From: Escherichia coli
GTDB lineage: Bacteria > Pseudomonadota > Gammaproteobacteria > Enterobacterales > Enterobacteriaceae
DNA: 27,357 nucleotides
NCBI RefSeq assembly: GCF_003334355.1
Contig: NZ_QOWP01000042.1
Strand: one strand, 5' to 3'
Shown here: one piece after another, positions 23,301-26,300 of the stretch
Layout: the number at the start of each line of letters is the position of its first letter
Numbering within the stretch: position 1 is the stretch's first letter
Program-made: the position numbers

Positions 23301-26300
23301 GACCGTTATGCACGGCATGAGCCGCCGCCACACGCGTAAAACGATCGCCCAGACCACCGACCATCCCACCACCAGCAATAATAGCATCCACCACATCGCA
23401 AAATGATTGCGTTAACTGCTGATTTTGCTGATCGGCAAGTGCCTGTTCGCTACTGTTTAACAAGACGTCGCGAATGGCCTGCGCATTATTGATCCCCAGC
23501 CGCACGGTTAGCGGCAACGTTTCTGGTTGCGGAGCCAGCACCACCGCTTCATACCATTTCGCCAGCGTGTCACCGATCCCCGCCAGCAGATATTGTTGCG
23601 GTGCATTGAGGATAATCTCCGGTTCCACAAGCACCATAAAATTGGCGTCGTCGAAAATCTCATAATGCAGCGCCTGTCCGGCATCGTTATACCAGACGGA
23701 GAGCGGTGTCCAGGCTGCGCAGGTGGCGGCGATCGTCGGAGCGGCAACAAATGGCAGACCGAGACGGCGGGCGAGGGCTTTCGCGGTGTCGAGCAGTGCG
23801 CCGCCGCCGACGCCAATCACCACGCTGCGATCGTCACCGGACTCAGCCGCCAGTTGCTGTACATCGCTTTCGCTGCAATGACCACGAAACAAAATATGCT
23901 TTGCCCCTGGAAGTCCAAACGCTGGCGGAAGTTTGGTTTGCGCCGCAGCAATGGCGCGTTTGCCGTAGATCCACACCGCGCGAGAAAGTTGTTCATCAGT
24001 GAAAAAATCGTTCAGGTGATTGAAACTTCCTGGATGTGAAAAGTAGTTAGCCGGGCCGACGACCACGCGGATAGGATTGTGAGGCATGTTGTGTTGTCCT
24101 TATTGTTTTATTTAGACATCTAAACGTCTTGATTGCCAAATACTAGCATCGTGTTATAGTGCCTTCAACACGCAACTTCGTCAGGTACAATAAAAATGAC
24201 AAATAACCCTCTGATTCCACAAAGCAAACTTCCACAACTTGGCACCACTATTTTCACCCAGATGAGCGCGCTGGCGCAGCAACACCAGGCGATTAACCTG
24301 TCGCAAGGCTTTCCTGATTTTGATGGTCCGCGCTATTTACAGGAGCGGCTGGCGCACCACGTTGCACAGGGGGCAAACCAATACGCGCCCATGACCGGCG
24401 TGCAGGCCTTGCGCGAGGCGATTGCTCAGAAAACGGAACGTTTGTATGGCTATCAACCAGATGCCGATAGCGATATCACCGTAACGGCAGGGGCGACGGA
24501 AGCGTTATACGCGGCGATTACCGCACTGGTGCGCAATGGCGATGAAGTGATTTGTTTTGATCCCAGCTATGACAGTTACGCCCCCGCCATCGCGCTTTCT
24601 GGGGGAATAGTGAAGCGTATGGCACTGCAACCACCGCATTTTCGCGTTGACTGGCAGGAATTTGCCGCATTATTAAGCGAGCGCACCAGACTGGTGATCC
24701 TCAACACTCCGCATAACCCCAGTGCAACTGTCTGGCAGCAGGCTGATTTCGCCGCTTTGTGGCAGGCGATCGCCGGGCACGAGATTTTTGTCATTAGCGA
24801 TGAAGTCTACGAGCACATCAACTTTTCACAACAGGGCCATGCCAGTGTGCTGGCGCATCCGCAGCTGCGTGAGCGGGCAGTGGCGGTTTCTTCATTTGGC
24901 AAGACCTATCATATGACCGGCTGGAAAGTGGGTTATTGTGTTGCGCCAGCGCCCATCAGCGCCGAAATTCGCAAGGTACATCAGTATCTGACCTTTTCGG
25001 TGAATACCCCGGCACAGCTGGCGCTTGCTGATATGCTACGTGCAGAACCTGAGCATTATCTTGCGTTACCGGACTTTTATCGCCAGAAGCGCGATATTCT
25101 GGTGAATGCTTTAAATGAAAGCCGGCTGGAGATTTTACCGTGTGAAGGTACATACTTTTTGCTGGTGGATTACAGCGCGGTTTCTACCCTGGATGATGTT
25201 GAGTTTTGCCAGTGGCTGACGCAGGAGCACGGCGTAGCGGCGATTCCGCTGTCGGTGTTTTGCGCCGATCCCTTCCCACATAAACTGATTCGTCTCTGTT
25301 TTGCCAAGAAGGAATCGACGTTGCTGGCAGCAGCTGAACGCCTGCGCCAGCTTTAGCTATTTAACCGTCCAGGCGCGGGAATATTGACGGTCGGCAAACA
25401 ACTCTTGCAGGCCGTTAATTTGCTTCAGGCGCAGCACTTCGTCGCTGTCCATTCCCAGCTCTTTGCCAATTTTATTATCGTCCCATCCCAACTGGCTAAG
25501 TTCACGGACGATTTCCGACATGGCGGTGATTTGATGGCGTCCACGAGCGCGATTATGACGAATAGTCGCGGCGATGCGTTGATTACGCGTACCTTCCAGA
25601 CAGGTCACCGGCAAATAACCTTTTAAGCGTAATTTTAATGATGATGAGCCTTTACCAATTTCATGGCGGTGAAAACCATCCACGATTTCCATGGCATTTT
25701 TATCCGTATGTGTGACCACAATGGGTTGGGTAAAACCATCTATTTCAATGGATTTTTGCAGCAGTTTTTTTTCGGGTGGTGCCACGTTGTTTGGGTTGTA
25801 ATCATTAGGCATAAGTTGGCTGTTTTTAACCCACAGAACGCAATCCACTGGCTCTTCACGAAAGGGGCTAACCTGATGGATCGCCATGCGGATTTCATTA
25901 ATCGCTTTGATGCGATCATCTTCCGGCAAGCTGGCGAGAAATTGCGTTAAATCCTGCGTTAATCGTTGTTGCATAGTATCCCCCATTCCTGACGTTTTCC
26001 TTTTATCCGTTCGTTATAACGCTGATAGTTCTTCGATTTTGTGGGGCTAAATGATAATGCCCGACACCAGTAATCGTTATTGAGTAAAACTTTGCATATC
26101 CGCCGCCAGGAGGGGATATCTTTCGCGCCAATGTCCCCTTGCTGGGTTTGTGGAACCTCGATGCCTTTTTTCTGATACCAGTGCAAATAAATGGCGATTT
26201 TATTGCGGTAATGCTCAGCTGTTTTTTCCGGCATGCTATTGAGCAGCAATAATGCATATTCTTGCCAGTCTAAATGTTCTGGCTTGAGGATTTTCCGATG

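What the first reader, a model, noticed from the sequence alone, without database searches (positions are those of the whole stretch)
25354..25359. ybdL and ybdM stop codons are directly adjacent (TAGCTA), forming a 6-bp palindrome with zero intergenic distance
The ybdL stop TAG (25354..25356) is immediately followed by cta (25357..25359), the minus-strand TAG stop of ybdM. The convergent genes have no spacer at all. ybdNM transcription must therefore run antisense into ybdL (or the reverse), suggesting mutually exclusive expression of the aminotransferase and the ybdNM module.
Basis: seen in the sequence. Interest (0 to 1): 0.4.

Follow-up and report, generated by a model that had tools for sequence, protein, structure and literature searches.

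The report
Abutting stop codons of ybdL and ybdM
Two E. coli genes that face each other (ybdL and ybdM) end on adjacent bases with no DNA between them, so their messages must overlap at the ends; this is real and evolutionarily old, but it is already annotated and already published as an overlapping pair, and tight spacing of this kind is common in E. coli.

Summary
The ybdL stop TAG (25354-25356) is followed directly by cta (25357-25359), the minus-strand TAG stop of ybdM. RefSeq annotates the same abutting coordinates.

The palindrome TAGCTA is incidental. It arises only because both genes use TAG. It is polymorphic within E. coli (TAGTTA in other strains) and occurs in 7 of 33 aligned species.

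The conserved feature is the zero spacer itself. It holds in 32 of 34 species with this neighbourhood, across seven genera. Two Citrobacter carry a 13-nt insertion, so a spacer is tolerated.

Tight convergent junctions are ordinary: 4 of 16 pairs sampled in E. coli C600 have a spacer of 0 or less.

Overlapping transcription is geometrically unavoidable here. The pair is already listed among 165 convergent "excludons" of MG1655 (NAR 2025). Conway 2014 found complementary 3' ends at 75% of convergent operons.

Mutually exclusive expression is not shown. ybdL follows MetJ and ybdNM follows CitR. Large induction of either gene produced no reported change in the other.

The most likely anatomy is that each terminator lies inside the other gene. 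A conserved hairpin with a U-rich tail sits 27-72 nt into ybdM, and C-rich stretches on both sides are suited to Rho.

Verdict: ordinary and already known.

The parts
24196..25356 (+). ybdL CDS (methionine aminotransferase, 386 aa); stop TAG at 25354-25356
   Evidence: ORF list; NCBIfam NF006569 at 710 bits against a cut-off of 420; PDB 1U08 full length; RefSeq annotation
25354..25359 (.). The junction: ybdL stop TAG followed by the reverse complement of the ybdM stop (CTA). Zero spacer; incidental 6-bp palindrome
   Evidence: Zero spacer in 32 of 34 species. Hexamer varies (TAACTA, TAATCA, TAGTTA, TAGTCA, TAATTA, TAGCTA)
25357..25986 (-). ybdM CDS (209 aa; IbrB-like, weak ParB N-terminal domain); stop at 25357-25359
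   Evidence: RefSeq; Pfam ParB_N, E = 3e-4
25959..27179 (-). ybdN CDS (PAPS-reductase domain plus DUF3440). It overlaps the ybdM start by 28 nt and is co-transcribed with ybdM under CitR control
   Evidence: RefSeq coordinates mapped from L001; Pfam PAPS_reduct and DUF3440; CitR repression from PMC9068703
25383..25419 (+). Hairpin B: stem-loop in the ybdL-sense RNA, 27-63 nt past the ybdL stop and inside ybdM codons (INGLQELFADRQ). Candidate embedded terminator or 3'-end-protecting hairpin for ybdL mRNA
   Evidence: -16.6 kcal/mol, z = -3.2 on the + strand; -9.1 kcal/mol, z = -0.3 on the - strand. Found by my scan. It is the only helix near the junction kept by RNAalifold. 90.9% of cells paired across 33 species with weak covariation. 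It partly persists where ybdL is absent
25420..25428 (+). U-rich tail after hairpin B (UUGCUUCAG; 25419-25427 reads UUUGCUUCA, 5 U of 9). Predicted region of the ybdL mRNA 3' end
   Evidence: inference only, no 3'-end data found
25323..25351 (.). Hairpin A: GC-rich near-palindromic stem-loop in the last 11 codons of ybdL. In the ybdNM transcript it starts 5 nt after the ybdM stop. It lacks an adjacent U-tract on the - strand and is specific to Escherichia
   Evidence: -17.0 kcal/mol (+) and -21.2 kcal/mol (- with flanks). Not conserved: 71% of cells paired, 308 of 500 shuffles at least as good
25435..25512 (+). C-rich, G-poor stretch of the untranslated ybdL read-through RNA (C 33%, G 15%). 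A plausible Rho loading region
   Evidence: inference
25097..25174 (-). C-rich, G-poor stretch of the untranslated ybdNM read-through RNA (C 27%, G 14%). A plausible Rho loading region
   Evidence: inference
24114..24160 (+). Two tandem MetJ-box-like octamers (AGACATCT AAACGTCT, 24114-24129) next to a promoter-like site (TTGCCA-16-TATAGT, 24133-24160) upstream of ybdL
   Evidence: MetJ iModulon and ChIP-exo statement in PMC11701608

Best explanation
This is an ordinary, maximally compacted convergent gene junction. It is not a dedicated regulatory device.

In an ancestor of Escherichia, Citrobacter, Enterobacter and Klebsiella, all dispensable DNA between the MetJ-controlled aminotransferase gene ybdL and the CitR-repressed ybdNM operon was lost. 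Both proteins end at their conserved cores, so the junction cannot shrink further. It can re-expand only by an insertion at one single phosphodiester bond, so it has stayed at zero (inferred).

No terminator can sit between the genes, so each transcript ends inside the other gene (shown by geometry). The predicted ends are inferred:
- ybdL mRNA most likely ends at a conserved hairpin plus U-rich tail 27-72 nt into ybdM (25383-25428). Escaping polymerases would be stopped by Rho on the untranslated C-rich RNA at 25435-25512.
- ybdNM mRNA most likely ends within the last 50-260 nt of ybdL. A hairpin at 25351-25323 has no good U-tract, so Rho and/or head-on polymerase collision probably does the work.

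The two mRNAs therefore share roughly 100 nt or more of complementary 3' ends. That is why RNA-seq classifies the pair as a convergent excludon (shown, from the literature). Any reciprocal repression is probably weak under normal conditions, because ybdNM is nearly silent (inferred).
For: - Geometry and annotation.
- No canonical terminator at the junction and no Rfam family.
- Published transcript overlap: ybdL-ybdM appears in Table 1 of PMC12288877.
- Overlap is the norm: 276 of 370 convergent operons in K-12 give complementary 3' ends, mean 286 nt (PMC4161252).
- Tight or overlapping convergent CDS pairs are common in my sample (4 of 16 have a spacer of 0 or less). Five of the six pairs with a spacer of 11 nt or less are on the excludon list (yicG-ligB, arnF-pmrD, mtlR-yibT, ybdD-hcxA, ybdL-ybdM). 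Tight spacing therefore almost predicts that label.
- A spacer is tolerated: a homologous 13-nt insertion in two Citrobacter.
- Adjacency is not obligatory: 5 Citrobacter and 2 Trabulsiella keep ybdNM without hcxA-ybdL.
- Hairpin B.
- C>G stretches.
- Independent regulators and no reported reciprocal change.
Against: - Exact zero spacing has persisted across seven genera while YbdM diverged to about 63% identity. This could reflect selection rather than inertia.
- Hairpin B is stronger than most other segments of the antisense-ybdM RNA in many species and is strand-asymmetric in E. coli. That hints at a maintained RNA element.
- As a class, excludon pairs showed less single-cell co-expression and higher synteny than other neighbouring pairs (PMC12288877).
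- No 3'-end mapping data for this locus could be found, so the predicted transcript ends are untested.
Confidence: 0.72

Rival explanations
1. Functional convergent excludon. The forced 3' overlap is used for regulation. When methionine limitation derepresses ybdL, its read-through RNA and polymerases suppress ybdNM, through RNase III cleavage of the duplex and head-on collisions. When CitR is relieved, ybdNM transcription lowers ybdL. The result is either/or expression.
For: - The pair is on the published excludon list.
- Class-level single-cell and synteny evidence for excludons.
- Zero spacer and adjacency conserved in 32 of 34 species.
- Collision-driven termination at convergent pairs is an established mechanism (bioRxiv 10.1101/2022.10.23.513370).
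- mscL-arfA is a worked E. coli example of convergent antisense crosstalk (PMC10070815, listed).
Against: - There is no pair-specific test in the excludon paper. The p19 dsRNA validation did not work for convergent pairs.
- A 12-fold rise in ybdL gave no listed ybdM or ybdN change. A 45-fold rise in ybdN gave no listed ybdL change.
- Salmonella ybdM was reported to move with ybdL, not against it.
- ybdNM persists without ybdL next to it in 7 enteric species.
- A 13-nt spacer is tolerated.
- Regulation by overlap would need only a short spacer, not exactly zero.
- With likely overlap limited to about 100-300 nt and very low ybdNM transcription, collisions should be rare (inference).
Confidence: 0.2
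2. The conserved element is hairpin B. It would be a selected, CDS-embedded intrinsic terminator for ybdL written into the synonymous sites of ybdM. The zero spacer would persist because the terminator has been moved inside ybdM.
For: - Hairpin B is kept by RNAalifold.
- 90.9% of cells are paired and two pairs show double changes (CG/UA at columns 149-181; AU to GC at columns 151-179). Shuffles reach the observed values in only 2-5 of 500 trials.
- It is strand-asymmetric in E. coli.
- It is the strongest local hairpin of the whole antisense-ybdM RNA in 13 of 31 sequences.
- A U-rich tail follows it.
Against: - Most of the stem is invariant because it encodes conserved residues (NGL...ADR), so conservation is confounded with protein constraint.
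- By the tool's own caveat, the shuffle result lies in the range seen for unconstrained related sequences.
- The hairpin also persists in Citrobacter sp. R56 and its close relatives, and in Trabulsiella odontotermitis, which lack ybdL downstream.
- An E. coli strain (L061) carries a pair-breaking G-to-A change.
- The tail has only 4-5 U of 9, and the simple terminator scan did not call the site.
Confidence: 0.3
3. Annotation or sequence artefact: one of the two stop codons is not the true end of its gene, so the abutment is not real.
For: None found.
Against: - Both stops are at the same aligned position in 33 species with no gaps.
- YbdL equals the crystallised 386-aa protein 1U08 and spans the family profile end to end.
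- The locus covers at least 80% of the query in 5397 of 5426 complete E. coli genomes.
Confidence: 0.01

Closest known systems
Convergent excludons / overlapping 3' UTRs of E. coli MG1655 (ExcludonFinder, NAR 2025, PMC12288877; Conway et al. 2014, PMC4161252)
   Same: Convergent neighbours whose transcripts overlap at their 3' ends. This exact pair is on the published list. The spacing is tight, as for other listed pairs such as yicG-ligB (-4 nt), arnF-pmrD (-7 nt) and ybdD-hcxA (9 nt).
   Different: No pair-specific evidence of reciprocal expression or RNase III processing exists. The spacer is exactly zero rather than the 95-nt mean reported for excludons.
mscL-arfA convergent antisense crosstalk in E. 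coli (PMC10070815)
   Same: Convergent E. coli genes with complementary 3' regions. This is the worked example of how such an overlap can regulate.
   Different: For mscL-arfA a regulatory effect was studied experimentally. For ybdL-ybdM none has been. I did not read that paper beyond its title and abstract line.
Bidirectional terminators and programmed head-on RNAP collisions at convergent pairs (Wang, Watters, Ju and Liu, bioRxiv 10.1101/2022.10.23.513370)
   Same: Convergent pair. A stem-loop (hairpin A) sits at the gene boundary and forms on both strands in Escherichia.
   Different: Hairpin A lies inside the ybdL coding sequence. It lacks a proximal U-tract on the minus strand and is not conserved outside Escherichia. 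The simple scan found no canonical A-tract/stem/U-tract element.
Convergent overlapping genes (shared coding bases), e.g. ligB/yicG, waaH/yibQ and pmrD/arnF in E. coli
   Same: Extreme compaction of a tail-to-tail junction. Terminators are necessarily inside coding sequence.
   Different: Here no base is shared. The two stop codons abut.

Membership tests
Convergent excludon (overlapping convergent transcription units) | Adjacent genes on opposite strands, tail to tail | tested here: met
   ORFs and RefSeq annotation
Convergent excludon (overlapping convergent transcription units) | Transcripts of the two genes overlap on opposite strands | tested here: met
   Geometric necessity with a zero spacer. 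Published RNA-seq classification in at least 50% of 58 samples (PMC12288877 Table 1). I had no raw reads to inspect.
Convergent excludon (overlapping convergent transcription units) | Expression of one gene lowers expression of the other (mutual exclusion) | tested here: inconclusive
   Published DEG tables show ybdL +3.6 log2 without ybdM/ybdN listed, and ybdN +5.5 log2 without ybdL listed. Salmonella ybdM moved with ybdL. Power is low because ybdNM counts are very small.
Convergent excludon (overlapping convergent transcription units) | RNase III-dependent processing of the sense/antisense duplex | not testable with these tools
   No short-RNA or rnc data for this locus. The p19 validation failed for convergent pairs in general.
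Bidirectional intrinsic terminator | GC-rich stem-loop between convergent genes, flanked by an A-tract upstream and a U-tract downstream, so that it terminates on both strands | tested here: not met
   There is no intergenic DNA. The simple scan finds no site at the junction. Hairpin A has a U-rich 3' flank only on the + strand and is not conserved.
Intrinsic terminator embedded in the opposing CDS (hairpin B) | Stable stem-loop immediately followed by a U-tract, located downstream of the stop codon | tested here: inconclusive
   The stem-loop is stable (-16.6 kcal/mol, z = -3.2) and conserved. The tail has only 4-5 U of 9. No 3'-end data were found.
Overlapping genes (shared coding nucleotides) | At least one nucleotide belongs to both CDSs | tested here: not met
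   ybdL ends at 25356 and ybdM begins at 25357.
Rho-dependent terminator | Untranslated, C-rich, G-poor RNA of about 80 nt upstream of diffuse 3' ends, sensitive to bicyclomycin | tested here: inconclusive
   C>G stretches are present on both read-through RNAs (C/G 2.17 at 25435-25512; 1.9 at 25174-25097). Bicyclomycin sensitivity is not testable here.

The most novel reading that the evidence does not exclude
The zero-spacer junction, together with the conserved strand-asymmetric hairpin inside ybdM, is a selected antisense coupling. It would link methionine status (the MetJ-controlled ybdL) to the enigmatic CitR-repressed ybdNM module (PAPS-reductase-like plus ParB-like, IbrAB-type), so that the module can be expressed only when ybdL is repressed. 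It would have been conserved for that reason since the common ancestor of Escherichia and Klebsiella.
Probability: 0.07. Interest if true: 0.45.

Novelty: already known. Interest (0 to 1): 0.15.

Why it matters
It matters little as a discovery. The abutting coordinates are in every RefSeq annotation, the pair is already on a published excludon list, and 3'-overlapping convergent transcription is the rule in E. coli.

The modest value added here is fourfold:
- The palindrome is shown to be an accident of stop-codon choice.
- The exact zero spacer is shown to be ancient: seven genera, 32 of 34 species. A natural 13-nt insertion and natural loss of the ybdL neighbour both argue against obligatory coupling.
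- Concrete, testable positions are given for the embedded transcript ends.
- The pair is a clean natural test case. It has two known, unrelated repressors (MetJ and CitR) and no intergenic DNA, which suits the question of whether a forced 3' overlap has any regulatory consequence.

Tried and rejected
- Canonical terminator at the junction: the simple scan found none.
- Known RNA family: no Rfam match at E of 1 or less over 23900-27357.
- Ungapped DNA inverted repeats of at least 8 nt around the junction: none. The hairpins rely on G-U pairs and bulges.
- Hairpin A as a conserved bidirectional terminator: rejected. 71% of cells paired and no better than shuffles.
- Hairpin B as something specific to ybdL termination: weakened, because it partly persists in species without ybdL.
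- Published 3'-end maps for this locus: no mention of ybdL/M/N in the held supplements of Adams 2021. No supplements are held for Dar and Sorek 2018, Conway 2014 or ExcludonFinder.
- Strandedness of the Salmonella and CitR RNA-seq libraries could not be established from the texts. The co-variation of ybdM with ybdL therefore cannot be assigned to co-expression or to read-through.
- PADLOC defence models for YbdM and YbdN: only weak hits (DndC E = 2e-5, BrxP E = 1.2e-4, MTase_II E = 1.1e-3). Not pursued, as peripheral to the finding.
- Salmonella itself was not recovered by the peptide-pattern scan, and I ran no further search on it.
- Two literature searches failed for technical reasons.
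Full report
**Observation.** The window reads ...CGC CAG CTT TAG | CTA TTT AAC CGT CCA... at 25342-25371.

- The ORF list gives ybdL at 24196..25356 on the plus strand and ybdM at 25357..25986 on the minus strand. The TAG at 25354-25356 and the cta at 25357-25359 are therefore the two stop codons. No base lies between them and none is shared.
- The region is E. coli. A 2996-bp query covering ybdL-ybdM-ybdN is matched over at least 80% of its length in 5397 of 5426 complete genomes.
- RefSeq annotates abutting coordinates in every strain I opened: C600 (7161/7162) and GN25, 23AR0303 and strain 107 (1461/1462).
- Both protein ends are genuine. YbdL is identical over 386 of 386 residues to the crystallised protein 1U08. 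It fills the methionine aminotransferase profile from end to end.

**Is it more than chance?** Two features need separating.

The palindrome is a trivial consequence of both genes using the same stop codon.
- It is polymorphic inside E. coli. K-12-like strains and GN25 have TAGCTA, while 23AR0303 and strain 107 have TAGTTA.
- Among 33 aligned species the hexamer is TAACTA, TAATCA, TAGTTA, TAGTCA, TAATTA or TAGCTA. It is palindromic in only 7.

A spacer of zero or less is not unusual either.
- I took every convergent pair in three stretches of the C600 chromosome, about 115 kb. The spacers are -14, -7, -4, 0, 9, 11, 31, 32, 36, 38, 52, 58, 70, 83, 120 and 272 nt.
- The next convergent pair in this same window, ybdD/hcxA, has a 9-nt spacer.

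**What is conserved.** A scan of one genome per species with YbdM gave 57 loci. I located the YbdL, YbdM and YbdN homologues in each and extended them to their stop codons.

- ybdL is the convergent neighbour of ybdM in 34 loci. These span Escherichia, Citrobacter, Enterobacter, Lelliottia, Huaxiibacter, Klebsiella, Superficieibacter and one unclassified enteric MAG.
- The spacer is exactly zero in 32 of those 34. This holds although YbdM falls to about 63% identity and each stop codon has changed many times.
- A 270-column alignment around the junction has no gap at all.
- The two exceptions are Citrobacter youngae and Citrobacter sp. Cu233. They share a homologous 13-nt insertion (CGAAATCRCGTCA) exactly between the stops, so a spacer is tolerated.
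- Five other Citrobacter and two Trabulsiella keep citR-type ybdNM but lack the hcxA-ybdL cassette. There ybdM faces ybdD/cstA across 45-110 nt, so adjacency to ybdL is not obligatory.
- Distant ybdN/ybdM pairs have no ybdL nearby and sometimes have the reverse gene order. They occur in Vibrio, Shewanella, Firmicutes, Treponema, an actinomycete and an archaeal MAG. This marks ybdNM as a mobile two-gene module.

My reading (inference) has three steps. Deletion removed every dispensable base between two proteins that both end at their conserved cores. Once the spacer is zero, the only neutral way back is an insertion at one phosphodiester bond. Such an insertion has been seen once in this clade. 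Persistence of the zero is therefore what mutational inertia predicts, and it does not by itself indicate selection.

**Where the transcripts end.**

No canonical terminator lies at the junction, and no Rfam family matches. My relaxed scan found two hairpins.

Hairpin B (25383-25419, plus strand) lies 27-63 nt past the ybdL stop, inside the ybdM codons for INGLQELFADRQ. It is followed by UUUGCUUCA.
- In E. coli it folds at -16.6 kcal/mol (z = -3.2) in the ybdL-sense RNA. On the ybdM-sense strand it reaches only -9.1 kcal/mol (z = -0.3).
- It is the only helix near the junction that RNAalifold keeps across 33 species.
- 90.9% of cells are paired, and there are a few double changes: CG/UA at columns 149-181, and AU to GC in Klebsiella pneumoniae.
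- The first 90 nt of the ybdL read-through RNA contain a stronger local hairpin than the rest of the antisense-ybdM RNA in most species (mean -17.6 against -13.7 kcal/mol).

The caveats on hairpin B are serious.
- Most of the stem is invariant because it encodes conserved residues.
- The shuffle statistics are in the range the tool reports for unconstrained related sequences.
- The hairpin partly persists where ybdL is absent.
- One E. coli strain carries a pair-breaking change.

Hairpin A (25323-25351) sits in the last 11 codons of ybdL, and begins 5 nt after the ybdM stop in the ybdNM transcript.
- It is stable on both strands.
- It lacks a proximal U-tract on the minus strand.
- It is not conserved: 71% of cells are paired and 308 of 500 shuffles do as well.

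Both read-through RNAs are untranslated. Both soon become C-rich and G-poor: C/G 2.17 at 25435-25512, and 1.9 at 25174-25097. Rho is known to act on substrate of this kind.

My model (inferred, not shown) is as follows.
- ybdL mRNA ends at or near hairpin B, with Rho as a backstop.
- ybdNM mRNA ends within the last 50-260 nt of ybdL. Rho and/or head-on collision does the work, as described for convergent pairs (bioRxiv 10.1101/2022.10.23.513370). Trimming back to hairpin A in Escherichia is possible.
- The mRNAs would then share roughly 100 nt or more of complementary 3' ends.

**What is published.**

- ExcludonFinder (NAR 2025, PMC12288877) lists ybdL-ybdM, and also ybdD-hcxA, among 165 convergent excludons present in at least 50% of 58 MG1655 RNA-seq samples.
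- Its validation is at class level only: terminator prediction, single-cell co-expression and synteny. The p19 dsRNA test did not work for convergent pairs.
- Conway et al. 2014 found that 276 of 370 convergent operons in K-12 produce complementary 3' ends, averaging 286 nt. Overlap is therefore the norm.
- Five of the six pairs in my sample with a spacer of 11 nt or less are on the excludon list. Tight spacing almost guarantees that label.

**Does overlap mean mutual exclusion here?**

The two sides answer to unrelated regulators.
- ybdL and its divergent partner hcxA belong to the MetJ iModulon, with ChIP-exo support (PMC11701608). Two MetJ-box-like octamers sit at 24114-24129, beside a promoter-like site.
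- ybdNM is repressed by CitR/YbdO (PMC9068703).

The published differential-expression tables show no reciprocity.
- In that paper's yneJ-mutant sheet, ybdL rises 3.6 log2 with the met genes. Neither ybdM nor ybdN appears.
- In its citR-mutant table, ybdN rises 5.5 log2 and ybdM 2.5 log2. ybdL is not listed.
- In Salmonella, ybdM was reported to change together with ybdL, ybdH, ybdD and the met genes (PMC11481890). That is either co-expression or ybdL read-through counted as ybdM. Library strandedness is not stated.

None of this is a strong test, because ybdNM counts are tiny (base means 20-36). Even so, nothing supports either/or expression.

**Comparison and verdict.**

- The pair works like, and is already catalogued as, a convergent excludon in the loose sense of overlapping convergent transcription units.
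- It does not meet the definition of overlapping genes, because no base is shared.
- It does not meet the definition of a canonical bidirectional terminator.
- The defining functional feature of an excludon, reciprocal repression, remains untested.

Novelty: already known.

Interest: low.

The most novel reading not excluded is a selected antisense link between methionine status and the ybdNM module. I rate its probability at about 0.07.

Noticed in passing
window about 22989-22999 (ybdD stop to hcxA stop; L001 4794/4804): The neighbouring convergent pair ybdD/hcxA has only a 9-nt spacer and is also on the published excludon list. The divergent MetJ-regulated hcxA-ybdL cassette is therefore bounded by two extremely tight convergent junctions. 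The whole cassette is absent in 5 Citrobacter and 2 Trabulsiella species.
   Followed up: partly
window 25959-25986: ybdN and ybdM overlap by 28 nt on the same strand. This suggests translational coupling within the ybdNM operon.
   Followed up: no
L041, L042, L049, L058 and other distant loci: YbdN/YbdM-like pairs occur in Vibrio, Shewanella, Firmicutes, Treponema, Dactylosporangium and a Pacearchaeota MAG. Some have the gene order reversed (M before N). This is a widely mobile two-gene module of unknown function (PAPS-reductase/DUF3440 plus ParB-like; weak DndC and BrxP similarity).
   Followed up: partly
PMC9068703 Table 1, concerning window 25357-27179: In the citR mutant, ybdN rises 5.5 log2 but ybdM only 2.5 log2. 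A back-calculation from base means assumes equal sample numbers and rests on very low counts. It gives about equal reads per kb for both genes in the mutant, but about 7-fold more per kb for ybdM than for ybdN in wild type. A CitR-independent source of reads over ybdM would fit this, for example ybdL read-through if counting was not strand-aware, or an internal promoter. The cys regulon was also up in this mutant.
   Followed up: partly
L002 (E. coli IR53017, NZ_CP064103.1): One E. coli strain has the ybdL-ybdM-ybdN region broken up. ybdL is truncated, ybdM is gone, and fragments of pagP, dcuC and a DUF3440 gene are interleaved, with many pseudogene flags. This is a rare rearranged or decayed allele.
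   Followed up: no
window 25354-25626 (+): The reading frame of ybdL stays open for 89 further codons after its TAG, up to the TAA at 25624-25626. Both ybdL and ybdM end in TAG followed by C. From general knowledge this is a weak termination context, and amber-suppressor strains such as supE C600 would extend both proteins.
   Followed up: no
L009 4131-4143 and L014 4131-4143: There is a homologous 13-nt insertion (CGAAATCACGTCA / CGAAATCGCGTCA) exactly between the two stop codons in Citrobacter sp. Cu233 and C. youngae. It is the only departure from zero spacing, and its origin is unknown.
   Followed up: partly
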